Positions 301 through 18,572 of a DNA stretch of 19,370 bases are shown in pieces. Source of the stretch: a virus (lineage: Duplodnaviria > Heunggongvirae > Uroviricota > Caudoviricetes); the IMG/VR virus record IMGVR_UViG_2513237361_000014. One strand, given 5' to 3'. Position 1 is the first letter of the stretch. Every line of letters starts with the position of its first letter. The position numbers and the translations under genes were made by a program. Under the pieces are notes generated by a model. That model was not told the DNA's origin and made no database searches. It saw nothing but the letters and a program-made list of their open reading frames with translations.

Positions 301-524
301 TTGGTCAGTTTGCTGCGCTGAAGCAGCCACAGTCGGGAGCCGTAACGGTCATTCTGTACCGCAGGCCAGGTATCCCCCCACCATCCCATCGGGACGTCGG
401 CGTTGTCATCAGGCTCCGCCCGCCGCCAGGTAAACAGGGAAATCACCACGGCGCGGGTCAGCGGATCCAGCGGTGCGCTGGCGCAGGTGCGTTTACCGTT
501 CACCGTCAGCCACAGTTCCATCAT
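216..524 (-). pseudogene. Phage baseplate/tail protein, 3'-disrupted (Mu gp46-like by position); last ~23 codons read antisense through kefG
   Basis: ORF directly follows the two baseplate genes on the same strand with a 4-bp start/stop overlap at 521-524. The first ~80 codons are phage-like; the assignment is by gene order, not recognised sequence. Confidence 0.35.
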
Positions 525-1069
525 GCCTCCATCGCTTTATCAGGTTTGTCGGTGTTACTGCCCTGACCGTTCTCTCTGTGACGATGCCCGTTATAGGCAA
601 GCCGCATCGCTGACATGGTGGTGCCGCCGGAGTCGCACAGGTCTTTCACCTGTCCGGTCACTTCCAGATCCATTTCAAAACGTGCTTCAGGTGCATTGCG
701 AAACGTGATCGTTTTCCCTGCACCGTCCACCACGATCCCCTCCCGGGTCAGCGTCACAGACTGCCCCTGATCGTCATAGACAGCCACCTCACCCGTTTGC
801 AGCCCTTTCAGGCGGTAGCGCCGGTCCGACACCGTAACAACCACCGCATGAGAACGGTCGCCATCCGGAAACAACACCACCGCTTCCGCACCGCTGTTTG
901 CCCTTGCGGTAAAACCGTAGGGTTCAAGATATTCAACCCCGGCTTTGGGTTCACCGGCAATCAGGGACACATCCACGGTCTGACATTTCGTGGCGGCACT
1001 GATGCTTTTCACCACTGCCCGCCCAATCAGGCCGAGAAGTTGTCGCTGCATGGCTTCAATCGTCCTCAT
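521..1069 (-). CDS. Phage baseplate assembly/spike protein V-like (Mu gp45-like)
   Basis: 182-aa ORF whose C-terminal region (CDSGGTTMSAMRLAYNGHRH) resembles the spike-apex region of gpV-type proteins as I recall it. Its start overlaps the upstream gene by one base at 1069. Confidence 0.55.
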   Translation of the reverse strand: MRTIEAMQRQLLGLIGRAVVKSISAATKCQTVDVSLIAGEPKAGVEYLEPYGFTARANSGAEAVVLFPDGDRSHAVVVTVSDRRYRLKGLQTGEVAVYDDQGQSVTLTREGIVVDGAGKTITFRNAPEARFEMDLEVTGQVKDLCDSGGTTMSAMRLAYNGHRHRENGQGSNTDKPDKAMEA

Positions 1070-2091
1070 CAGAACGGGTCCTCCTGTACTCTGGCTTTTT
1101 TCTTTTTCCGCGCGCCGGGGGCTTCGGGTTCAGGCAGATAAGCGTCAGGCGGGCCGACACGGATTTCCGTCAGGGTGCCGTTCTGGTCCTGAGTAAACGT
1201 GACTTCCGAGACAAGCAGTTCGGTATTGTCGAAACCACAGACCGGATCGAAGACAATCACCCGCTGGTTGGGCTGCCACAGCGTACCGTTACCCTGTCGC
1301 CAGCCCTGCACCACATAGGTGGTTTCATCCGTCCGCGCCGCCCGTTTTCGGGCTTCAAAGTCAGCACGCGCAATACAGCCTGCCCCCGTGGCCTGCCCTG
1401 TCTGCCTGATATACATCGGACGGTAACGGGCAATAAATGCGTCCTCTGTGCGGGCCCGCAGCGCGGTGGTGGTGGCCTCACCGAAATCATCGTCGTTTCC
1501 GGCACGCTGCCCCGCCACCTGGTAAACAGAAAACCGCTCCCGGATACTCTTCTCCGTATCGCAGGAAAGGATGTTTTCCCCGAGTACCAGCGCAGTATGT
1601 GCCCGCGTTGAGCCAATACCACCAATCACCAGCCTGCCGTGCGGGTCGTCGTAAGCCAGTGCCTGCTGCTGACCGAGTATTTTGTTGATTACCTCAATCA
1701 CCGTTTCACCGTGATCGGGCTGGACGTCAGGAATAACACCCGACGGCGCACCGCTGTTCACCACCTCAATGCCGAAAGGCGCAGCAAGCGCCTGCGCAAT
1801 CTGCACCAGCGAGCGTCCGTTAAACTGTGTCGGTTCGGCTGCACAGTCAATCAGGTCAGCCGTCAGACTACGTCCGGCAATACCGGTGCTGACCGAACGG
1901 GCATCGTAACGAACGGGAGTCGCCTCCACCCAGCCGGTGCTCACCAGCTCATCACCAATCAGCACTTCCACTTTTGAACCGTTTTTAATGCGCGGCTGAA
2001 GCGTGGTGATACCCTCATCTCCCGGCCATTGGCGAGTGATCTCCACACTGAAATCCCGCGCCAGCCGTTCAATACCGGCACCGATGCGCAC
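1069..2091 (-). CDS. Phage baseplate hub / late-control-D-like protein (Mu gp44-like), probably 5'-truncated
   Basis: 340-aa ORF from a GTG at 2091. The frame stays open upstream to 2142 ([23 protein letters not shown]...) with no start codon before it runs antisense into the tuf start, so the native N-terminus appears to be missing. Confidence 0.5.
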   Translation of the reverse strand: MRIGAGIERLARDFSVEITRQWPGDEGITTLQPRIKNGSKVEVLIGDELVSTGWVEATPVRYDARSVSTGIAGRSLTADLIDCAAEPTQFNGRSLVQIAQALAAPFGIEVVNSGAPSGVIPDVQPDHGETVIEVINKILGQQQALAYDDPHGRLVIGGIGSTRAHTALVLGENILSCDTEKSIRERFSVYQVAGQRAGNDDDFGEATTTALRARTEDAFIARYRPMYIRQTGQATGAGCIARADFEARKRAARTDETTYVVQGWRQGNGTLWQPNQRVIVFDPVCGFDNTELLVSEVTFTQDQNGTLTEIRVGPPDAYLPEPEAPGARKKKKARVQEDPF

Positions 2092-9286: not shown

Positions 9287-9294
9287 ATGATAAA

Positions 9295-9322
9295 ACGAGT
9301 CCTTCGGGGCTCGTTTCTGTCT
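9295..9322 (+). terminator. Rho-independent terminator downstream of clpB
   Basis: 8-bp stem ACGAGTCC / GGGCTCGT with a TTCG tetraloop, followed by a T-rich tract (TTCTGTCT), 9 bp after the clpB stop. Confidence 0.65.
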
Positions 9323-9396
9323 ATAAGTTAGACGGAAAAGACCATGCTCGGGGTGTTTTGCCTGAAAATTGAGCGAACGATAAAGTTTTTATATTT

Positions 9397-10509
9397 TTCG
9401 TGCGTTGCGTAAACATGGTTGCTGATCTGTGGCACGCGCCTGCGCCGAAAAACGGTCAGGCCGTTGGCACCAACACCATTGGTTCTTCCGAGGCCTGTAT
9501 GCTCGGCGGGATGGCGATGAAATGGCGTTGGCGCAAGCGTATGGAAGCCGCAGGTAAACCGACCGATAAACCAAACCTGGTGTGCGGCCCGGTGCAAATC
9601 TGCTGGCATAAATTCGCCCGTTACTGGGATGTGGAGCTGCGCGAGATCCCTATGCGCCCCGGTCAGTTGTTTATGGATCCGAAACGGATGATTGAGGCCT
9701 GCGACGAAAACACCATCGGCGTGGTGCCGACTTTCGGCGTGACCTACACCGGTAACTATGAGTTCCCGCAACCGCTGCACGATGCGCTGGATAAATTCCA
9801 GGCCGACACCGGTATCGACATCGATATGCATATCGACGCTGCCAGCGGTGGCTTCCTGGCACCGTTCGTCGCCCCGGATATCGTCTGGGACTTCCGCCTG
9901 CCACGCGTGAAATCGATCAGTGCTTCTGGTCATAAATTTGGTCTGGCTCCGCTGGGCTGCGGCTGGGTTATCTGGCGTGACGAAGAAGCACTGCCGAAAG
10001 AGCTGGTGTTTAACGTTGACTATCTCGGCGGGCAAATCGGGACTTTTGCCATCAACTTCTCGCGTCCGGCGGGTCAGGTGATTGCCCAGTACTATGAATT
10101 CCTGCGCCTCGGTCGAGAAGGCTACACCAAAGTGCAGAACGCCTCTTATCAGGTCGCCACTTACCTGGCGGATGAAATCGCTAAACTGGGACCGTATGAG
10201 TTCATCTGCACCGGTCGCCCGGACGAAGGTATCCCGGCGGTTTGCTTCAAACTGAAAGACGGGGAAGATCCGGGATACACCCTGTATGACCTCTCTGAAC
10301 GTCTGCGCCTGCGCGGCTGGCAGGTTCCAGCCTTCACCCTTGGCGGTGAAGCCACTGACATCGTGGTGATGCGTATTATGTGTCGTCGTGGCTTCGAAAT
10401 GGACTTCGCTGAACTGTTGCTGGAAGACTACAAAGCCTCCCTGAAATACCTCAGCGATCACCCGAAACTGCAGGGTATTGCCCAGCAGAACAGTTTTAAA
10501 CATACCTGA
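9397..10509 (+). pseudogene. Glutamate decarboxylase (GadA/GadB-type) lacking the first ~95-100 codons and any promoter
   Basis: Translation ...[36 protein letters not shown]... through [19 protein letters not shown] (PLP-lysine region) to ...[11 protein letters not shown]. Similarity begins abruptly about 110 bp after the clpB terminator. I cannot tell gadA from gadB. Confidence 0.85.
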
Positions 10510-10556
10510 TAACCTTGTATTAATCTAATTTTTTATTTTTTTATCAATAGGTTACA

Positions 10557-11153
10557 TTAAGCCTCTTCTCTTTTTAAATTTTCATTTATTAGATTATTTC
10601 TTTCCCATAATCCGGCAAAACGTGCGGCATTACTGGCGGTATAACGCACAGTATGGCGAATATTTCGATGCCCCAGATAATCCTGAATTAAACGAGTATC
10701 TGCACCGCGCTCGGCCAGTTCATAACCGCAAGCATGTCTTAACATATGAGGGTGAGTCTGCGTCACGGTTCCAGCTTCAACACCCGCATCACGAATGATG
10801 CGATAGGCCTGCTGGCGAGAAAGTCGGCTTCCACGACGAGAAATAAATATGGCATCGGTCTGGTCAGCACCTTTCCAGTTAGAACGTTCAAGGGTCCAGC
10901 GTTCTACAGCCTCACGCTCGTCGAAACGTAGTGGATGGACAGTAGAAAATCCGTTCTTCAGCCGACGAATATTTATCCGGCCTTCATTGAGATCAAGATC
11001 CTGATAATGAAGATCAAGTAGCTCACTAATACGCATCCCGTGCCGATATGCCAACAGAATAAGACAATAATCTCTGGCTCCCGTTGCCCCATAGCAAACC
11101 GCTTGCATCATTGCCTGAACTTCTTTACCGGTAAGATAGCGACGTTTACTCAC
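10557..11153 (-). CDS. fimE: Type 1 fimbriae switch recombinase FimE (tyrosine recombinase)
   Basis: 198-aa ORF MSKRRYLTGKEVQAMMQAV...HPHMLRHACGYELAERGADTRLIQDYLGHRNIRHTVRYT, with the tyrosine-recombinase R..HxxR..Y signature. Confidence 0.92.
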   Translation of the reverse strand: MSKRRYLTGKEVQAMMQAVCYGATGARDYCLILLAYRHGMRISELLDLHYQDLDLNEGRINIRRLKNGFSTVHPLRFDEREAVERWTLERSNWKGADQTDAIFISRRGSRLSRQQAYRIIRDAGVEAGTVTQTHPHMLRHACGYELAERGADTRLIQDYLGHRNIRHTVRYTASNAARFAGLWERNNLINENLKREEA

Positions 11154-11632
11154 AATAGTAGTACTCCTGAACTGGGTTATATTTGAATGAATACCTATAG
11201 GAAAACCTCAATCGGTTAAAATTAGCCCAATAGATAAAAAGATAATCACACACGACATTGAGCGATTATCAGACGTTCACATTAAATATCATACAAAAAT
11301 AAAATATCACTGATGTGACAAAATCTATTTTCATTGATTTAATTCAATATAACAATAGAGTAAACAGAATTAACTTCCAGTTGCTTAAAAAATAAAGAAA
11401 AAAACACAATGAGGTAAGAACTTAGGTGATGTGTAAATTTATGAATGATTTTGTTTGTTTATTTTAAAAAAATAAAACCATTGTGGTTTGTATGGCTGTG
11501 GTTAAACCAATGTTTATTCTGATAATTAATGATTATACTTACAATAACATCAATTAATAAATGGTTAATTATTATTGATACATCGTAAGAATAATGTAGT
11601 TTTTAACACCATCCATGGTATCTCATCCGTTT

Positions 11633-12235
11633 TTATAAAACAGCATGGCGTTGCCGACCTCTGGGGCTATCCCAGATACCGTAAAAACGCCCTGCATTAC
11701 TGGCGGTATACCAGACAGTATGACGAATATTACGATGGCCAAGATAATCCTGGATAAGCCGTGTATCTACTCCCATATTCGCCAAAGCAAAACCACATGA
11801 ATGACGTAACATGTGAGGATGAATCTCTAGTGATAATCCAGCATTATCACCTGAAGTAGAGATGATTTGATAAAACTGTTGACGAGAAAGAGGATTCCCC
11901 TTGCGTGACAAAAACACCCACTCGCTCTCAGCATGTGGATAAGAAGTACGCATACTCAACCAGTTTTTTAAAGCCTGAACTTCTTTGTTTAAGAGCGGGT
12001 GTGTCGTTGAAAAGCCTTTTTTTAATCGATGGATATATATACACTTTGCCTTAAGATCAATATCTGAAATTCTCAATCGACAAATTTCACTCGCCCGGAA
12101 GCCATGAATAAAACAAAGTAAAGTCAGACAATAATTACGTGCAGCATGAGGCCCGGTATTTGCTGCTTTAAGGAGTAACTCGATTTCACTGTGGGTCAGG
12201 AAGTTCCTTTTTTTGTTATCAGCCTTATTCTTCAT
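11633..12235 (-). CDS. fimB: Type 1 fimbriae switch recombinase FimB
   Basis: 200-aa ORF MKNKADNKKRNFLTHSEIE...HPHMLRHSCGFALANMGVDTRLIQDYLGHRNIRHTVWYT. It lies 479 bp upstream of fimE on the same strand, as in the native fim locus. Confidence 0.92.
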   Translation of the reverse strand: MKNKADNKKRNFLTHSEIELLLKAANTGPHAARNYCLTLLCFIHGFRASEICRLRISDIDLKAKCIYIHRLKKGFSTTHPLLNKEVQALKNWLSMRTSYPHAESEWVFLSRKGNPLSRQQFYQIISTSGDNAGLSLEIHPHMLRHSCGFALANMGVDTRLIQDYLGHRNIRHTVWYTASNAGRFYGIWDSPRGRQRHAVL

Positions 12236-13262
12236 CGTTTTCCCTTATAATTGCAGACACGCACTAGCTGTACTGGGTTATTACCAGCCCAACATTTAGC
12301 CCTGATTATGTTTATAAAAGCGAACGTTTGTGTAATGACTAACGCAAGTGGATCAGCTCTTTTGAATGAACTAAAATGGAGTGGCGATAGTTACTTATAA
12401 TAACTTTGCCATACAAACGCTATATGCTCTTGTATGCTATGTTCATTAATATATTTATCAGCGTAAGACGAAATCCAATAATAAACCTCATGATCAATAT
12501 AACTATTCTTATCTATATATCATGTGATATCTTCTGTAACAAGCAAATCATCATAAAAATTTAATATTGCTTCTGTCAGCCATCTCACACATAACATTAT
12601 TAGTCAACTCTGTTTTTCCGCATAATTGCTATTTCATAGAAACCGGTAATTTTCAGGTGGCTATTATCATGCTAATGCTTAGTTTCCTAGCCATTATTAT
12701 CCTTTGGTTCGTAAACTCATGCTGTGAGGTTGTTACATCCCTTTTTCATACTGTGTATTTCCCGGAGATATGAGGAAAGCCAGGACACGCTTTTTCCATC
12801 TGCATTCGTTGCTAAAGATAGCTTTGGTCACTACGACTTAAACCTTCCTGACTCACAGCTATTCGCCGGGTGATACGGCAACAAACGGATTGAAACATCA
12901 TCCTGAAAATACCGATGCGTGCTGAACATCAACAAGCCTGCCCGGAACAACTCCGGGAGTTCCCAGCTACGTGCCACAAAGCAGGAAACATATTTCATGA
13001 TGAGAATTATGCCCAGTCTGATGGCGGATAGACACTTATCTTTACCATGCTCGCTGAGTTATCTTGCAAATCGCCTCCTGTTTGAACTAAAAATAAATAA
13101 CATATAAAACAAATAATTAAAGAAAAACCTTTGGTTTATGAAGAGCTCCGCAAGTGGTCATCTGGCTTCACATAGCATCTTCTTCTTAGAAAAATATCGA
13201 CATATTTTGTGACACGAATTGCAAATCTGGTTTTGTTGTATGGATTGTGTGATTTTTGATCT

Positions 13263-13281
13263 GGTATAACAGGTATAAAGG
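13263..13281. promoter_or_regulatory. NanR-type operator (GGTATA hexamer repeats) in the fimB-nanC divergent regulatory region
   Basis: GGTATAACAGGTATAAAGG, with repeated GGTATA units of the kind bound by NanR at sialic-acid promoters, about 430 bp upstream of nanC in a 1.46 kb AT-rich intergenic region. Confidence 0.5.
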
Positions 13282-13692
13282 TTCACCAAGACAATAAATG
13301 AAGCTGGGCATCTCGCAATCTATGACAAACATCACTTCAGTTCTTTCTCATCGGGTGATGAAAACGCACTTCAGTCTGAAAGGAGTATGAAAATGAGATC
13401 AACAAACAATCTATTTTATGACTCTGGGTAAAATGGATTGAGTAAGTGATATAGCTTACGAACATTCAAATCAATTAAACATCAGAAGAGATTTTATACT
13501 CAGGTATTTAATCTGGTCCTCTGTATATTTAAATAATGTGGAAAGTGAATTTTCACAGGAGACCTTATACAAAAAATATAAAATACAGCTATCCGCTGCC
13601 AAAGACACTATAAGCCTGGCAAAAAATATTACACGACATAAATGCTAATTGTTTATGCGGGCTTTGTATTACTTTCTGTATCCTACAAATGA

Positions 13693-14418
13693 GTGAAATT
13701 TATGAAAAAGGCTAAAATACTTTCTGGCGTATTATTACTCTGCTTTTCGTCGCCATTAATTTCTCAGGCTGCAACACTGGACGTCCGTGGTGGATATCGT
13801 AGTGGGAGCCATGCTTATGAAACTCGACTCAAAGTCAGTGAGGGATGGCAAAATGGATGGTGGGCAAGTCTTGAAAGTAATACCTGGAACACTATTCATG
13901 ATAATAAAAAAGAAAATGCCGCACTCAATGATGTTCAGGTCGAAGTTAATTACGCAATAAAACTTGATGATCAATGGACTGTGCGCCCGGGAATGTTAAC
14001 CCATTTTAGCAGCAACGGTACACGCTACGGACCTTACGTAAAACTGTCCTGGGATGCGACAAAAGATCTCAATTTTGGCATTCGCTATCGTTACGACTGG
14101 AAAGCCTACCGACAGCAAGACTTATCCGGCGATATGTCTCGTGATAACGTTCATCGTTGGGATGGATATGTCACTTACCATATTAATAGTGATTTCACCT
14201 TCGCCTGGCAAACAACGCTATACAGCAAACAAAACGATTATCGCTATGCAAACCATAAGAAATGGGCGACGGAAAATGCATTTGTTCTACAATACCATAT
14301 GACGCCAGATATTACGCCATACATAGAATATGACTACCTTGACCGTCAGGGTGTTTACAACGGTAGAGATAATTTATCTGAAAACAGTTATCGCATTGGT
14401 GTGTCATTTAAACTGTAG
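13693..14418 (+). CDS. nanC: N-acetylneuraminic acid outer-membrane channel NanC (KdgM family); start could be 13693 or the ATG at 13702
   Basis: Signal peptide (MKKAKILSGVLLLCFSSPLISQA), beta-barrel pattern, C-terminal ...YRIGVSFKL. Confidence 0.85.
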   Translation: MKFMKKAKILSGVLLLCFSSPLISQAATLDVRGGYRSGSHAYETRLKVSEGWQNGWWASLESNTWNTIHDNKKENAALNDVQVEVNYAIKLDDQWTVRPGMLTHFSSNGTRYGPYVKLSWDATKDLNFGIRYRYDWKAYRQQDLSGDMSRDNVHRWDGYVTYHINSDFTFAWQTTLYSKQNDYRYANHKKWATENAFVLQYHMTPDITPYIEYDYLDRQGVYNGRDNLSENSYRIGVSFKL

Positions 14419-14437
14419 TAGACAGGAGACAGTCACA

Positions 14438-15544
14438 ATGAATAAAAAAATAATGGCACTTGCTATCATAATGGCTTCATTTGCCGCAAACGCGTCTGTA
14501 TTACCAGAAACCCCTGTGCCTTTTAAAAGCGGTACTGGAGTGATTGATAACAACACTGTCTACATTGGTTTAGGTAGCGCAGGAGCAGCATGGTACAAGC
14601 TGGATACGCAAGCCAAAGATAAGAAATGGATAGCCCTGGCGGAATTCCCGGCTGGCCCGAGAGATCAAGCAACCTCTGCATTTATTGATGGTAATTTGTA
14701 TGTATTTGGCGGTGTTGGTAAAAACAGAGATGGGTTAACTCAGGTATTCAACGACGTACACAAATATAATCCCGAAACCAATACCTGGGTTAAATTGATG
14801 TCACACGCACCGATGGGCATGGCGGGTCATGTGACTTTTGTACACAACGGCAAGGCTTATGTTACTGGCGGTGTTAACCAGAATATCTTCAATGGCTATT
14901 TTGAAGATCTCAATGAGGCTGGAAAAGATTCAAAGACTATAGATAAAATCAACGCCAACTATTTTGACAAAAAAGCAGAAGATTATTTCTTCAATAAGTT
15001 TCTGTTGTCTTTTGAGCCCTCTACACAGCAATGGAGTTATGCTGGTGAATCTCCCTGGTACGGTACGGCTGGAGCGGCGGTAGCAAATAAAGGTGATAAA
15101 ACCTGGCTTATTAATGGCGAGGCAAAACCAGGATTGCGAACTGATGCTGTATTTGAGCTTGATTTCACCAGCAATAACATAAAATGGAATAAACTTTCTC
15201 CCGTCTCCTCACCGGATGGCGTAGCTGGCGGTTTTGCTGGTATTAGCAATGACTCTCTTATATTTGCCGGAGGAGCCGGATTTAAAGGTTCACGGGAAAA
15301 TTACCAGAACGGTAAGAACTATGCGCATGAAGGCCTGAAAAAATCGTATAGCGCTGATATTCATCTTTGGCATAACGGGAAATGGGAGAAATCTGGCGAA
15401 CTGTCGCAAGGTCGGGCCTACGGAGTATCATTACCCTGGAATAATAGCTTATTGATTATTGGCGGTGAAACTACGGGCGGCAAAGCTGTGGCGGATTCAG
15501 TGTTACTCTCTGTGAAAGATAATAAAGTGACTGTGCAAAACTAA
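14438..15544 (+). CDS. nanM: N-acetylneuraminate mutarotase NanM (YjhT), Kelch-repeat periplasmic protein
   Basis: ATG at 14438 preceded by AGGAGA. Signal peptide MNKKIMALAIIMASFAANA, with repeated GG/GGV Kelch-like motifs. The ORF track's 14330 start includes an untranslated leader. Confidence 0.88.
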   Translation: MNKKIMALAIIMASFAANASVLPETPVPFKSGTGVIDNNTVYIGLGSAGAAWYKLDTQAKDKKWIALAEFPAGPRDQATSAFIDGNLYVFGGVGKNRDGLTQVFNDVHKYNPETNTWVKLMSHAPMGMAGHVTFVHNGKAYVTGGVNQNIFNGYFEDLNEAGKDSKTIDKINANYFDKKAEDYFFNKFLLSFEPSTQQWSYAGESPWYGTAGAAVANKGDKTWLINGEAKPGLRTDAVFELDFTSNNIKWNKLSPVSSPDGVAGGFAGISNDSLIFAGGAGFKGSRENYQNGKNYAHEGLKKSYSADIHLWHNGKWEKSGELSQGRAYGVSLPWNNSLLIIGGETTGGKAVADSVLLSVKDNKVTVQN

Positions 15545-15549
15545 CTTTT

Positions 15550-15573
15550 CAGGGCTCCAGTAAAGGAGCCCTG
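15550..15573 (+). other. Perfect 9-bp stem-loop between nanM and nanS
   Basis: CAGGGCTCC - AGTAAA - GGAGCCCTG, 6 bp after the nanM stop. It has no strong U-tract, so it is more likely an RNA-stability or processing hairpin within the operon than a full terminator. Confidence 0.4.
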
Positions 15574-15608
15574 ATATCAATTCATCATTTTAATTACGCG
15601 ACATTTAT

Positions 15609-16595
15609 ATGAACGCAATAATATCGCCCGATTATTACTATGTTCTTACCGTTGCCGGTCAGTCTAATGCTATGGCGTATGGCGAAGGACTCCCGTTACC
15701 AGACAGTGAAGATGCGCCTCATCCCAGAATAAAACAACTGGCGAGATTCACTCAGACGCATCCCGGTGGCCCGTTATGTCAATTTAATGACATTATTCCA
15801 CTGACTCACTGCCCACACGATGTCCAGGATATGCAGGGTTATCACCATCCTCTGGCAACGAATCATCAAACACAGTACGGCACCGTTGGCCAGGCACTAC
15901 ATATTGCGCGGAAATTACTGCCCTTCATTCCTGATAATGCAGGCGTTCTTATCGTTCCCTGTTGCCGTGGTGGATCGGCTTTTACCACGGGCAGCGAAGG
16001 GACATATTCAGAACAGCACGGAGCCAGCCATGATTCATGTCGTTGGGGAGCGGATACTCCGCTGTATCAGGATTTAGTCAACAGAACACGAACGGCACTG
16101 TCAAAGAATCCGCAGAATAAATTCCTCGGCATATGCTGGATGCAGGGCGAATTTGACTTAATGACCAGTGACTACGCGTTACATCCTCAATACTTTAATC
16201 ATATGGTTGAAGCCTTTCGTGAGGATTTGAAACAGTATCGTTCTCAGCTTAATAATATTGCTGCCGCTCCGTGGTTTTGCGGCGATACCACCTGGTACTG
16301 GAAAGAAAATTACTCTCATGCGTATGATACGATTTATGGCAATTATAAAAATAATGCCTTAGCCAATATTATTTTCGTCGGCTTCCAGCAACAAGGTGAA
16401 AGAGGGCTGACGAACGAGCCAGATGAAGATCCGGACGATTTTAGCACGGGATATTACGGTTCAGCGTACCGAACACCAGAAAACTGGACGACGGTGCTAC
16501 GCAGCAGTCATTTCAGCTCAGCAGCCCGTCGGGGGATTATTTCTGACAAATTTGTTGAAGCTATTTTACGGTATTGGTGCGAAAGGTGGCTTTAA
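15609..16595 (+). CDS. nanS: N-acetyl-9-O-acetylneuraminate esterase NanS (YjhS)
   Basis: 328-aa ORF MNAIISPDYYYVLTVAGQSNAMAYGEG..., with an SGNH-like esterase N-terminus (GQSNA), following nanC-nanM as in the nanCMS operon. Confidence 0.85.
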   Translation: MNAIISPDYYYVLTVAGQSNAMAYGEGLPLPDSEDAPHPRIKQLARFTQTHPGGPLCQFNDIIPLTHCPHDVQDMQGYHHPLATNHQTQYGTVGQALHIARKLLPFIPDNAGVLIVPCCRGGSAFTTGSEGTYSEQHGASHDSCRWGADTPLYQDLVNRTRTALSKNPQNKFLGICWMQGEFDLMTSDYALHPQYFNHMVEAFREDLKQYRSQLNNIAAAPWFCGDTTWYWKENYSHAYDTIYGNYKNNALANIIFVGFQQQGERGLTNEPDEDPDDFSTGYYGSAYRTPENWTTVLRSSHFSSAARRGIISDKFVEAILRYWCERWL

Positions 16596-16596
16596 T

Positions 16597-16905
16597 ATGC
16601 GCCACGATGACACCACCGTCGCGCTGGAAGCGGCGCATATAAAATGGAAACAGCACGGCGGCCCTTGTGAAATCCCCAATGGTCTGGCGCTTTGCGCAAT
16701 TCACCATAAAGCCTTTGATAAAGGATCGATTGGCCTGGATGAAAATATGCGGGTACTGGTCTCGGATGCGGTAAACGGCGGAGGGATCGTTGAGAAACTA
16801 TTCTGGGATTTTGACGGGAAAACTATTGCGTTGCCGCAGGTGCGTAAAAATTACCCTTTTGAGGGGTTTGTGGAGTGGCATCGGAAAGAGGTTTTTAGGG
16901 GGTGA
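16597..16905 (+). pseudogene. HNH-nuclease-family C-terminal fragment (~103 codons)
   Basis: MRHDDTTVALEAAHIKWKQHGGPCEIPNGLALCAIHHKAFDKGSIGLDENMRVLV carries an H-N-H core (AAHIKW ... NGLALCAIHH). The ATG sits 1 bp after the nanS stop with no room for the N-terminal domain expected of full-length proteins. The ORF track's 16423 start is an out-of-frame overlap with nanS. Confidence 0.45.
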
Positions 16906-16912
16906 GGTTTGC

Positions 16913-16956
16913 TGTAAATAGACCCGTTTTAGTTCCATGCATTTTTTGAGCTCCCG
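16913..16956. repeat. Left inverted repeat (38 bp perfect, 44 bp with one mismatch)
   Basis: TGTAAATAGACCCGTTTTAGTTCCATGCATTTTTTGAG at 16913-16950 is the exact reverse complement of 18137-18174. The match extends to 16956 / 18131 with one mismatch. Confidence 0.9.
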
Positions 16957-17264
16957 ACACTGCTAAATCCGCGCTGGGGCAAGTTGGGTTTAGGTTGCGC
17001 CAGAAGATGGCAACTCATCATGGTATGCAGTTCGTTCCATGGCTGAGAGTCACACTGGAGCAAGAGTTTGTACATAACAATCCGGCCAAAGTTAATGATG
17101 ATAATTTCAATAACGATATTGCCGGAACAAGAGGAAGTTGCCAGGCTGGCATCAGCGCGGCTACCACGCCGCACACACATATTTACGCCAGCATAAATTA
17201 TGAGAAAGGTGATGGGGTGGAATCGCCATGGACTGGAAACATTGGCTTTAATTATAGTTTCTAA
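16950..17264 (+). pseudogene. Outer-membrane beta-barrel protein C-terminal fragment (autotransporter- or porin-type)
   Basis: Frame opens right at the inner edge of the left repeat and ends ...YASINYEKGDGVESPWTGNIGFNYSF, with a C-terminal aromatic residue and alternating hydrophobic pattern typical of barrel C-termini. There is no signal peptide or N-terminal domain. Confidence 0.4.
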
Positions 17265-17370
17265 TATGGCATTTCATGTTTATATCAATTCCTATATATC
17301 CATTGCTTTTACAATCAAATGAGAACACCATTCATTATCTTAACAATAGAGATGAAGTCAGGAGACAGCC

Positions 17371-17964
17371 ATGTCATTGCTAGAGTCATTTGGGAAAGTA
17401 TTAATTATATTGCTTGAAGCATTTTTAGGGAAACGCAAAGGTCAGGAGGAAGCACATATTAATTTTTTAAATGAATATACGAAAGAAAACTGCAACCATC
17501 GTTTGGTAGAATATTGGTTTTGTCAGCTCACAGGATGGCGTTACGCAAAGTACCAGGATATTGTTTTTATAATGATCTCATCCGACCCATCAAAAATATT
17601 GTATATGGCTAAAGGCATTAATTACATTGCCCGTACAGTGGAATTTATTGATAGTGGAGAATGCAAACTATCCGATAGATATAAAGAAACGAAAAAGAAT
17701 ACATTCCTCTTTTTGTTCATATCATTCATGATCATTTTCTTCATATTAATTGCCTGGATGGTATCCTCTGTAATATCTCTGATAACACATCATCATGATG
17801 TCATATTAATGGCTATAAATATTTCATCGATAATAGCAGGTGCGATTTTTATCATGTGCTTTGCATTCTTCATTCATGCAATAACAATGGAGTTTTTTGC
17901 CTTTGAAAAGGCAGAGCATTTTGTAAAATCTTACAATGCAGAAAGAGCATCATCAGGTCGTTAA
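17371..17964 (+). CDS. Hypothetical membrane protein (197 aa), unrecognised
   Basis: ATG with AGGAGA 7 bp upstream. AT-rich codon usage unlike the flanking genes. Hydrophobic N-terminus, a ~100-aa hydrophilic region, then two strong transmembrane helices (FLFLFISFMIIFFILIAWMVSSVISLI and VILMAINISSIIAGAIFIMCFAFFIHAI). Confidence 0.55.
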   Translation: MSLLESFGKVLIILLEAFLGKRKGQEEAHINFLNEYTKENCNHRLVEYWFCQLTGWRYAKYQDIVFIMISSDPSKILYMAKGINYIARTVEFIDSGECKLSDRYKETKKNTFLFLFISFMIIFFILIAWMVSSVISLITHHHDVILMAINISSIIAGAIFIMCFAFFIHAITMEFFAFEKAEHFVKSYNAERASSGR

Positions 17965-18130
17965 TGTTTGCCTCTATATTAATGCTACTGCTATCGCCAC
18001 CTATTAATATCTGCCAATCAATAGGCAAAAAGGTGATACCAGTGGCATCAAAATTTCAGCCAAACAATCTTTGTAAGACGAAGATCTCTGATTTAGCACT
18101 GCACTGATTTTGGGCCAGGGTCAATTTGGC

Positions 18131-18174
18131 CGGGATCTCAAAAAATGCATGGAACTAAAACGGGTCTATTTACA
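18131..18174. repeat. Right inverted repeat, partner of 16913-16956
   Basis: Reverse complement of 18137-18174 equals 16913-16950 exactly. Confidence 0.9.
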
Positions 18175-18306
18175 ACCGGACTGTCAGCGGCAACACTCCC
18201 GCACATGGATTATGAGGTGGCAGGCACACCGGCACAGCGCAAGGTGTGGCAGGACAAAATAGACCAGCAGGCAGCAGAGCTTAAGGCCAGAGGACTGCTG
18301 TCATGA
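18145..18306 (+). CDS. Short ORF (53 aa), possibly the 3' remnant of a P4-like late gene (sid-like by position only)
   Basis: Its ATG lies inside the right repeat; translation MHGTKTGLFTTGLSAATLPHMDYEVAGTPAQRKVWQDKIDQQAAELKARGLLS. Its stop overlaps the next ATG (ATGA), a hallmark of coupled phage genes. No sequence-level identification. Confidence 0.2.
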   Translation: MHGTKTGLFTTGLSAATLPHMDYEVAGTPAQRKVWQDKIDQQAAELKARGLLS

Positions 18307-18383
18307 TGCGCTGCCATTTCTGTCGTCATTCTGCGCATACCCGCACCGGCAAGCACAGCACCGGCTGTTGTCCGAAAAGTTAA
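18303..18383 (+). pseudogene. Ogr/Delta-family zinc-finger transcription activator, N-terminal stub (26 codons)
   Basis: MMRCHFCRHSAHTRTGKHST aligns with the P2 Ogr N-terminus as I recall it (MFHCPLCQHAAHARTSRYIT): the C-x2-C, H-x-A-H and R-T positions are conserved. It then terminates early, whereas full Ogr/Delta proteins are 72-166 aa. Confidence 0.4.
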
Positions 18384-18437
18384 AGGCTGTTACAGCTCAC
18401 CATTCAACCATTAATCAGGAGACGGGGTGTGACTACA

Positions 18438-18572
18438 ATGTCATTACAGCAGGCTTTTGAGGTCTGCCAGAATAATAAAGCGGCATGGCTTCAGCGCAAA
18501 AATGAACTAGCGGCAGCCGAACAGGAATATCTGCGGCTTCTGTCCGGGGAAGGCAGGAATGTCAGCCGGCTT
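18438..18572 (+). pseudogene. psu: Polarity suppression protein Psu (P4-type) N-terminal ~45 codons; after ~18572 the frame runs into unrelated sequence
   Basis: MSLQQAFEVCQNNKAAWLQRKNELAAAEQEYLRLLSGEGRNVSRL matches the Psu N-terminus from memory. Similarity stops exactly where the convergent minus-strand ORF ends (18571). Confidence 0.5.

What the first reader, a model, noticed from the sequence alone, without database searches (positions are those of the whole stretch)
16913..18174. 1.26 kb low-GC segment bounded by perfect 38-bp inverted repeats with no transposase
TGTAAATAGACCCGTTTTAGTTCCATGCATTTTTTGAG occurs at 16913-16950 and as its exact reverse complement at 18137-18174. The enclosed DNA is much more AT-rich than its flanks and carries a beta-barrel C-terminal fragment whose frame opens at the inner edge of the left repeat, plus an unrecognised membrane protein. 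I see no flanking target-site duplication and no recombinase inside. Candidate explanations are a non-autonomous transposon or MITE-like cargo element, a segment invertible by a recombinase encoded elsewhere, or an artificially delimited insert. The repeat does not match the IS ends I can recall.
Basis: seen in the sequence. Interest (0 to 1): 0.7.

Follow-up and report, generated by a model that had tools for sequence, protein, structure and literature searches.

The report
Insertion-sequence end scars around island relic
The 38-bp inverted repeats are leftover right-end stubs of a common IS3-family insertion sequence, and they bracket a dead fragment of a conjugative element fixed at one site in Escherichia marmotae; this is ordinary genome decay, not an active mobile or invertible element.

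Summary
The arms at 16913-16956 and 18131-18174 pair over 44 nt (38 perfect), against 0 expected by chance. The repeat is a known repetitive element: the transposase-3' end (IRR) of a ~1.2-kb IS3-family insertion sequence ("IS-A") found across Enterobacterales. Both arms are IRR-type (38/38 to IRR, 15/38 to IRL), so this is not an internally deleted single IS. The interior (16952-18070) is 92% identical to an ICE of E. coli MS 16-3 and carries the last ~104 codons of a 770-aa autotransporter plus the neighbouring 197-aa membrane-protein gene. The left stub joins the ICE DNA at a 7-8-nt microhomology (ATCCCGGC). The right stub is IS-A positions 1-51 fused to 49 nt of a second IS3-family element ("IS-B"), and that 100-nt block is identical on Klebsiella plasmids. 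The flanks are unrelated (backbone downstream of an HNH gene versus a truncated P4-like sid gene) and there is no target-site duplication. The source is Escherichia sp. TW09308 (E. marmotae). Ten independent assemblies carry the element at the same locus and in the same orientation, at least 99.6% identical. No copy was found elsewhere. Verdict: an inert IS-scarred mosaic. Interest is low.

The parts
16423..16905 (+). Left flank: shortened HNH / phosphorothioate-DNA restriction endonuclease gene. This is the last backbone gene after nanS, and E. coli synteny ends at 16909.
   Evidence: Pfam HNH_2. 97.6% identity to E. coli SCZE5 (L002) up to 16909, then divergence.
16913..16956 (+). Left arm: stub of IS-A (IS3 family), IRR positions 1-44, with the outer TG at 16913. 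It carries the last codons of OrfB (...SKNAWN*) on the minus strand.
   Evidence: 38/38 and 43/44 identity to the IS-A IRR, against 15/38 to the IRL. Alignment of IS-A copies. IS3-family transposase assignment.
16952..18070 (+). ICE-derived interior: the 3' end of an autotransporter gene, an intergenic spacer, the 197-aa gene and about 100 nt downstream.
   Evidence: 91.9% identity to E. coli MS 16-3, inside a region annotated with ICE and pathogenicity-island genes. It overlaps the left stub at the shared TCCCG(GC) microhomology.
16952..17264 (+). Autotransporter beta-barrel C-terminal fragment (about 104 codons of a 770-aa protein): a pseudogene without a start codon or passenger domain.
   Evidence: Pfam PF03797, E 1.5e-8, profile positions 166-254 of 255. 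90/104 aa identical to WP_000684968.1.
17371..17964 (+). Intact 197-aa ORF with a hydrophobic C-terminal half (I read two transmembrane helices by eye) and unknown function. It is the natural downstream neighbour of the autotransporter on the ICE.
   Evidence: Same gene order in L001 (WP_000054460.1). 181/197 aa identical, dN/dS 0.31. No family hit.
18071..18074 (.). 4 nt (TTGT) of unassigned filler at the ICE/IS-B junction.
   Evidence: Lies between the end of L001 homology (18070) and the start of IS-B homology (18075).
18075..18123 (-). Stub of a second IS3-family element (IS-B), IRR-proximal positions 1-49, nested against IS-A.
   Evidence: 49/49 identity to the full-length 1210-bp IS-B on K. 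pneumoniae plasmid L028. IS-B OrfB matches NF033516 at 249.8 bits.
18124..18174 (-). Right arm: stub of IS-A, IRR positions 1-51, with the outer TG (as CA on the + strand) at 18174.
   Evidence: 51/51 identity to the IS-A IRR. The first-stage repeat occupies 18137-18174.
18175..18306 (+). Right flank: 3' fragment of a P4-like satellite-prophage gene annotated 'glycoprotein 3' (sid-like), cut exactly at the IS-A end. P4-like delta and psu sequence follows.
   Evidence: 97.7% identity to E. coli TUM12355 (L005), starting exactly at 18175. Psu Pfam hit.

Best explanation
The segment is an inert mosaic scar, not a working element. Shown: the two arms are short terminal stubs (44 and 51 nt) of the same end, IRR, of a widespread ~1.2-kb IS3-family insertion sequence (IS-A), with their outer TG ends facing outward. 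Between them lies a 1.1-kb remnant of an integrative conjugative element, consisting of a truncated autotransporter barrel and a still-intact small membrane-protein gene. Inferred history: one IS-A copy inserted just downstream of the HNH endonuclease gene, and another inserted into the sid gene of a P4-like satellite prophage. The second copy carries, or acquired, IS-B nested 51 nt from its end. The bodies of these ISs and the adjoining island DNA were then lost by deletions. The left deletion joined IS-A position ~39-47 to the autotransporter gene at a 7-8-nt microhomology (ATCCCGGC), which indicates illegitimate recombination rather than transposase action. The right deletion joined IS-B position 49 to ICE DNA downstream of the 197-aa gene. 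The perfect 38-bp identity of the arms reflects how conserved this IS end is (the same 38-mer is found across at least 11 genera). It does not reflect a recent duplication. The structure is inherited vertically in E. marmotae, and nothing shows that it currently transposes or inverts.
For: - The repeat is an IS3-family end. It gives 97.8-100% matches at the 3' end of 'IS3 family transposase' genes in E. coli. The exact 38-mer occurs at 22 loci in Citrobacter, Salmonella, Kosakonia (7 loci), Morganella, Edwardsiella and others. OrfA and OrfB match NF033516.
- Both arms are IRR-type: 38/38 to IRR against 15/38 to IRL.
- The interior is ICE-derived: 92% identity to the autotransporter plus 197-aa gene pair of E. 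coli MS 16-3.
- The left inner junction has microhomology, and the ancestral G at 16957 extends it to TCCCGGC.
- The right arm is a nested IS-A(1-51)/IS-B(1-49) block, and the 100 nt are identical on Klebsiella plasmids and near-identical in C. braakii.
- The flanks are unrelated and there is no target-site duplication.
- Ten independent assemblies have the same locus and orientation at 99.6-100% identity.
- No other copy was found anywhere searched.
Against: - The order and number of events (two independent IS-A insertions and two deletions) is inferred. No intermediate state, such as a full IS-A at either site, was found in E. coli or in the assemblies read.
- Two deletions that each spare about 45-50 nt of the same IS end is a mild coincidence.
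- Both stubs are at least 38 nt and keep their exact termini, so residual recognition by an IS-A transposase supplied in trans cannot be excluded.
- Assemblies cannot reveal low-frequency inversion within a population.
- Only 10 of about 24 contigs read (107 index blocks) were checked base by base.
Confidence: 0.75

Rival explanations
1. Decayed composite transposon. Two IS-A copies in inverted orientation (IRR ends outward) captured the ICE fragment elsewhere and delivered it here as one unit. Both IS bodies were later deleted, leaving an immobilised cargo, much as Tn6330 (ISApl1-mcr-1-ISApl1) decayed.
For: Both outer junctions are exact IS termini with TG outward, which is the geometry expected of an inverted-IS composite. 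Decay of such transposons to stubs that retain an IRR is documented for Tn6330 (PMC5821093).
Against: There is no target-site duplication, and the flanks are not contiguous in any relative. The right end carries a nested IS-B scar that is shared with unrelated plasmids. No copy of the unit or of its IS-A/ICE junction was found elsewhere.
Confidence: 0.13
2. Mobile-insertion-cassette (MIC/MITE-like) element: a transposase-less cargo cassette bounded by IS-A ends that is still mobilisable in trans by IS-A OrfAB acting on two IRR ends.
For: It is bracketed by at least 38-nt exact IS termini with no transposase inside and an intact passenger ORF. This fits the anatomical definition of a MIC (PMC3913671).
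Against: There is no target-site duplication. It sits at a single fixed locus in all assemblies read. No other copies were found. Both ends are IRR rather than an IRL/IRR pair. The inner junctions are deletion scars: one shows microhomology and the other carries a stub of a second IS.
Confidence: 0.06
3. Invertible segment. Recombination between the 38-44-bp inverted repeats, by RecA or by a recombinase encoded elsewhere such as the nearby FimB/FimE, flips the 197-aa gene.
For: A perfect 38-bp inverted homology exists. By my recollection this is above the minimal length reported for RecA-dependent recombination in E. coli; no tool result tests this. Tyrosine recombinase genes fimB and fimE lie about 5 kb away.
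Against: All 10 assemblies have one orientation. No promoter or gene arrangement would make inversion meaningful, and the promoter-like sites are no more frequent than in shuffles. Only one near-match to the fimS 9-bp repeat lies within the element, at 18109-18117 in the right-end IS-B stub, with none near the left arm and fewer matches than expected by chance. The repeats are explained by their IS origin.
Confidence: 0.04
4. Assembly duplication or artificially delimited insert in the TW09308 pseudomolecule.
For: The source record is a concatenated draft. At least two joins in this window are artefacts, for example 5'-truncated gadB abutting fimE, whereas other assemblies have fimE-fimAICD.
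Against: The element and both of its junctions are identical in 9 other independent assemblies from NCBI and ENA, including the complete chromosome CP099351.1.
Confidence: 0.01

Closest known systems
Solo terminal remnants of IS3-family insertion sequences (orfA/orfB frameshift transposase, TG...CA ends, copy-out-paste-in transposition)
   Same: Both arms are exact copies of the IRR terminus of an IS3-family element and include the last OrfB codons. They begin with TG at the outer edge. Full copies elsewhere have an 88-aa OrfA plus an rve-type OrfB.
   Different: Only 44 and 51 nt survive. There is no transposase, no IRL and no target-site duplication. I could not give the IS an ISfinder name, because no such collection was available and PGAP labels it only 'IS3 family transposase'.
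Mobile insertion cassettes (MIC231 of Bacillus cereus; the qnrD mic of Proteeae) and MITE-like cargo elements
   Same: A passenger gene bracketed by IS-type inverted repeats with no transposase (definition in PMC3913671).
   Different: MICs show target-site duplications and recur at several sites, and MIC231 is mobilised in trans. Here there is no duplication, there is a single fixed locus, both ends are the same IS end, and the inner junctions are deletion scars.
Decay products of composite transposons, e.g. Tn6330 (ISApl1-mcr-1-ISApl1)
   Same: Cargo is left stranded after the flanking IS bodies are lost, and some derivatives retain only a piece of the IS that includes the IRR (PMC5821093).
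   Different: The Tn6330 ISs are direct repeats of an IS30-family element, and the ancestral duplications remain traceable. Here the stubs are inverted and from the IS3 family, and no ancestral composite or duplication is detectable.
Mosaic distal ends of tRNA-associated genomic islands in Escherichia (the variable region beyond nanS next to the fim locus)
   Same: The same chromosomal neighbourhood, fimB-nanC-nanM-nanS-HNH, is followed by variable, IS-rich island debris in E. coli.
   Different: The specific ICE fragment and the IS-A/IS-B scars occur only in the E. marmotae lineage and in none of 5,426 complete E. coli genomes.

Membership tests
IS3-family insertion sequence (complete, autonomous) | Terminal inverted repeats beginning 5'-TG that match a known family member | tested here: met
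   Both arms are 38/38 identical to the IRR of IS-A, whose OrfA and OrfB match NF033516.
IS3-family insertion sequence (complete, autonomous) | orfA/orfB transposase between the ends | tested here: not met
   No transposase ORF lies in 16913-18174. Only the stubs match IS-A or IS-B at word size 7.
IS3-family insertion sequence (complete, autonomous) | One IRL and one IRR end | tested here: not met
   Both arms are IRR-type. Identity to the IRL is 15/38 ungapped.
IS3-family insertion sequence (complete, autonomous) | Short (3-4 bp) direct target-site duplication | tested here: not met
   TGC on the left versus ACC on the right, and the flanks derive from unrelated DNA.
Mobile insertion cassette / MITE-like non-autonomous element | Bracketed by inverted repeats of a cognate IS, with passenger DNA and no transposase | tested here: met
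   Definition from PMC3913671.
Mobile insertion cassette / MITE-like non-autonomous element | Target-site duplication flanking the cassette | tested here: not met
Mobile insertion cassette / MITE-like non-autonomous element | Copies at more than one genomic location | tested here: not met
   One locus in all contigs read. No copy in E. coli genomes, plasmids, GTDB representatives or JGI metagenome contigs.
Mobile insertion cassette / MITE-like non-autonomous element | Mobilisation in trans by the cognate transposase | not testable with these tools
   This needs a transposition assay. Whether TW09308 carries an intact IS-A could not be checked, because the whole genome was not searchable.
Composite transposon | Two complete IS copies flanking the cargo | tested here: not met
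   Only 44-nt and 51-nt stubs remain. An ancestral composite cannot be excluded.
Invertible DNA switch (fimS-type or Hin-type) | Both orientations observed among genomes or reads | tested here: not met
   All 10 of 10 assemblies have the same orientation. Read-level data were not available.
Invertible DNA switch (fimS-type or Hin-type) | Recombinase recognition sites at both boundaries, or a dedicated recombinase | tested here: not met
   No recombinase lies inside. Only one near-match to the fimS 9-mer lies within the element, near its right end, and the number of matches is below chance expectation.

The most novel reading that the evidence does not exclude
The IRR-IRR unit could be a cryptic, still-competent cargo cassette. 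Both stubs keep at least 38 nt of exact IS-A terminus, so an IS-A transposase supplied in trans might mobilise the 197-aa membrane-protein gene. The recurrent IS-A(1-51)/IS-B junction seen across genera could likewise reflect targeted insertion of one IS3-family element into the end of another.
Probability: 0.05. Interest if true: 0.4.

Novelty: already known. Interest (0 to 1): 0.12.

Why it matters
It matters little beyond annotation. The case shows that a perfect long inverted repeat around AT-rich cargo can be nothing more than two decayed copies of a highly conserved IS end. The diagnostic checks are whether the ends are the same end or a left/right pair, whether the flanks are contiguous elsewhere, and whether the inner junctions look like deletion scars. 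The scar may serve as a lineage marker in E. marmotae, since all ten sister assemblies examined carry it and the type strain, which has IS66 in place of nanCMS, appears to lack it. It also preserves an intact ICE-borne membrane-protein gene of unknown function.

Tried and rejected
- **Tn3-family end.** The 38-bp length and a GGAAC..AAAAC motif suggested this from memory. I dropped it once the repeat matched IS3-family ends with TG termini.
- **MITE formed by internal deletion of one IS.** Rejected because IRL and IRR of IS-A differ and both arms are IRR.
- **Extra inverted 9-mer (TGCTAAATC) just inside both arms as a functional extension of the repeat.** Rejected. On the left it is native autotransporter sequence, in register with L001. 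On the right it belongs to the IS-B IRR. By my own estimate, a 9-mer inverted match within 1.2 kb is expected by chance.
- **Empty site or intermediate state.** The exact-nanS look-up was too strain-specific, with only 3 contigs. E. coli genomes never carry IS-A at either junction.
- **Metagenome scan for the left IS-A/ICE junction.** It returned 0 hits. I did not use the second scan because the organism appears to be absent from that collection.
- **Function of the 197-aa protein.** Pfam, NCBIfam, PADLOC and PHROGs gave nothing significant.
- **dN/dS of the passenger gene and the barrel fragment** (0.31 and 0.13). This cannot separate selection before capture from selection after it.
- **Naming IS-A and IS-B.** Not possible without ISfinder. 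PGAP labels both only as 'IS3 family transposase'.

Full report
**Observation.** The sequence TGTAAATAGACCCGTTTTAGTTCCATGCATTTTTTGAG lies at 16913-16950, and its exact reverse complement lies at 18137-18174. With up to three mismatches allowed there are no other copies in the window, and 200 dinucleotide-preserving shuffles gave none. The pairing extends to 44 nt with one mismatch, at 16913-16956 and 18131-18174. The enclosed DNA is AT-rich only in its right two-thirds: GC is 0.32-0.37 for 17265-18075. The barrel fragment is 0.46, against 0.48 for the left flank and 0.56 for the right flank. There is no target-site duplication (TGC|...|ACC) and no recombinase ORF inside.

**What the repeat is.** A search of complete E. 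coli genomes with the arm alone gave hundreds of 92-98% matches. These lie at the 3' end of genes annotated 'IS3 family transposase'. The exact 38-mer also occurs at 22 loci among species-representative genomes. These include Citrobacter, Salmonella diarizonae, Kosakonia oryziphila (7 loci), Morganella, Edwardsiella, Samsonia, Brenneria, Pseudocitrobacter and another Escherichia species, always once per locus. Aligning the longer copies defines a ~1.2-kb element (1207 bp in C. braakii L013), which I call IS-A. It has an 88-aa OrfA and an OrfB whose last codons (...SKNAWN*) lie inside the terminal repeat. Both proteins match NCBIfam NF033516, IS3 family transposase. The 38-mer is the IRR, the transposase-3' end. 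The IRL (TGTAAACATCCCGCATAATCGTGCC...) is clearly different. Each window arm is 38/38 identical to the IRR and only 15/38 identical to the IRL. The segment is therefore bounded by two copies of the same IS end, with their TG termini facing outward. It cannot be one IS that lost its middle.

**What lies inside.**
- Positions 16952-18070 are 91.9% identical to a stretch of the E. coli MS 16-3 chromosome that sits among ICE and pathogenicity-island genes (STY4528 and STY4534 family replication proteins, PFL_4669 and TIGR03759 ICE proteins). That stretch covers the last ~104 codons of a 770-aa autotransporter and the adjacent 197-aa hypothetical gene, in the same order and spacing.
- The fragment matches the C-terminal third of the Pfam Autotransporter beta-domain (E 1.5e-8). 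It has no start codon and no passenger domain.
- The 197-aa ORF is intact. Its C-terminal half is hydrophobic, and I read two transmembrane helices by eye. It is 181/197 aa identical to the ICE copy (dN/dS 0.31) and has no significant match in Pfam, NCBIfam, PADLOC or PHROGs.

**The inner junctions are deletion scars.**
- Left junction: IS-A reads ...TTTTTTGAGATCCCGGCCAAAT and the ICE autotransporter reads ...GGCACATCCCGGCACGGCTAAATC. The window switches from one to the other within the shared ATCCCGGC.
- In 6 of 10 sister genomes position 16957 is G, so the ancestral junction shared at least TCCCGGC.
- A 7-8-nt microhomology indicates illegitimate recombination rather than transposase cleavage, which acts at the IS tip.
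- Right junction: the IS-A stub is 51 nt (18124-18174). It is followed inward by 49 nt (18075-18123) that are 100% identical to the IRR-proximal end of a second IS3-family element, IS-B. IS-B is 1210 bp and full-length on K. pneumoniae plasmid L028, with OrfA and OrfB matching NF033516.
- The 100-nt IS-B/IS-A block is identical on Klebsiella plasmids, and the same IS-A(1-51)/IS-B junction is near-identical in C. braakii L014. In every case only IS-A positions 1-51 accompany IS-B.
- After four unassigned bases (18071-18074), ICE homology resumes.

**The flanks are unrelated.**
- To the left, synteny with E. coli (fimB-nanC-nanM-nanS-HNH endonuclease) runs to 16909 and then stops.
- To the right, homology to a P4-like satellite prophage starts exactly at 18175, inside the gene annotated 'glycoprotein 3' (sid-like), and continues into delta and psu.
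- No E. coli genome has IS-A at either position.
- Both outer junctions are exact IS termini, as expected of transposase-made joints. They belong to different target sites.

**Source and population.**
- An exact-sequence look-up of the 197-aa protein found it in 107 index blocks.
- All 10 places returned carry the whole structure at the same locus and in the same orientation. They are 99.6-100% identical to the window from 11371 to 18571, with 0-4 substitutions in the element itself and none in the 38-mers.
- One place, AEME01000001.1, is 100% identical through the end of the window. That record is Escherichia sp. TW09308 (PMC3850674), which is listed among E. marmotae isolates (PMC11546641).
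- The backbone is 89% identical to E. coli, which fits a separate species.
- The set includes a complete chromosome (CP099351.1), which excludes an assembly artefact.
- The E. marmotae type strain (CP025979.1) has IS66 in place of nanCMS. This explains why the species-representative scan did not return this species.

**Searches for other copies.** No genome among 5,426 complete E. coli genomes contains the unit, and the best hit covers only the interior. No plasmid among 72,556 contains more than the 100-nt IS block. No species representative has two inverted 38-mers in one locus. The unique IS-A/ICE junction is absent from the JGI metagenome contigs.

**Interpretation.** The best-supported reading is an inert mosaic. 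Two IS-A insertions into neighbouring island DNA were trimmed by deletions, and a stranded ICE fragment remains between two IRR stubs. One of the two insertions carries the nested IS-B. The arms are identical because this IS end is highly conserved across genera, not because of a recent duplication. The exact order of events is inferred, and a decayed inverted-IS composite transposon is the main alternative (compare Tn6330, PMC5821093). The unit has the anatomy of a mobile insertion cassette (definition in PMC3913671). It fails the tests for a target-site duplication and for more than one copy. The invertible-switch idea has no support: there is a single orientation in 10 assemblies, promoter-like sites are no more frequent than in shuffles, and there is no pair of FimB/FimE-type sites.

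**Caveats.**
- Only 10 of about 24 contigs read were checked base by base.
- Assemblies cannot exclude rare inversion within a population.
- I could not check whether TW09308 carries an intact IS-A.
- The ISs could not be named without ISfinder.
- The TW09308 record is a concatenated draft. The clpB|gadB' join (~9290-9400) and the gadB'|fimE join (~10510-10556) are artefacts, and the jump at 18571/18572 probably is one too. None of these touches the element.

Noticed in passing
window 9290-9400, 10510-10556 and 18571-18572: The source record (TW09308, AEME01000001.1) looks like a pseudomolecule of concatenated contigs. clpB is followed by a 5'-truncated gadB, and then by fimE with no fim switch or fimA. 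Other E. marmotae assemblies have fimE-fimA-fimI-fimC-fimD. At 18571/18572, nine sister assemblies diverge from the window, and the P4-like pieces are permuted relative to E. coli TUM12355.
   Followed up: partly
window 18075-18174; L028 4001-4100; L029 4001-4100; L014 ~2636-2735; L026 ~2674-2722: A second IS3-family element (IS-B, 1210 bp) sits exactly 51 nt inside the IRR end of IS-A in E. marmotae, Klebsiella IncFIB plasmids and C. braakii, with a related variant in Pseudocitrobacter. The rest of IS-A is never on the other side. This could mean targeted insertion into the IS-A end, or a single old junction spread by transfer.
   Followed up: partly
L044 (E. marmotae HT073016, CP025979.1) 1-1934: The E. 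marmotae type strain has an IS66-family element next to fimB where nanC, nanM and nanS should be, so the whole nan-to-island region that includes this element appears to be missing there.
   Followed up: no
window 17371-17964; L001 6420-7013: A 197-aa ORF with a hydrophobic C-terminal half is conserved next to an autotransporter on an E. coli ICE (92% aa identity, dN/dS 0.31). It has no hit in Pfam or NCBIfam and only non-significant hits in PADLOC and PHROGs. It is intact in all 10 E. marmotae genomes examined.
   Followed up: partly
window 16423-16905 versus L002 5009-6757: The HNH / phosphorothioate-DNA restriction endonuclease region is shortened relative to E. coli SCZE5. About 1.3 kb, including a separate 651-bp HNH endonuclease gene, is absent, and the window ORF is 160 aa against the 290-aa endonuclease in E. 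coli.
   Followed up: no
L030-L037 and L039, 7842-9668: In most sister strains the P4-like remnant to the right carries a PvuII-type restriction-modification system (Endonuc-PvuII, an HTH controller and an N6_N4 methyltransferase) plus an integrase. A PvuII-like system from TW09308 is discussed in PMC3850674, but it does not lie within this window.
   Followed up: no
L027 (Micromonospora sp. BL4, 461-nt contig) and L009 (Brenneria izbisi, 430-nt contig, coverage ~275x): A tiny contig in an actinomycete assembly carries the enterobacterial IS-A end and 9 nt of the adjoining IS-B end (60 nt, 98% identical to window 18115-18174), which is probably contamination. The Brenneria contig is a collapsed multi-copy IS end.
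   Followed up: no
window 521-2091: Mu-like phage baseplate genes (Gp45 and Gp44/GpP domains) lie on the minus strand at the start of the window, in DNA of about 59% GC.
   Followed up: no
window 10600-10759 and 11667-11826: The 160-nt direct repeat (74% identity) is simply the paralogy between fimE and fimB.
   Followed up: yes
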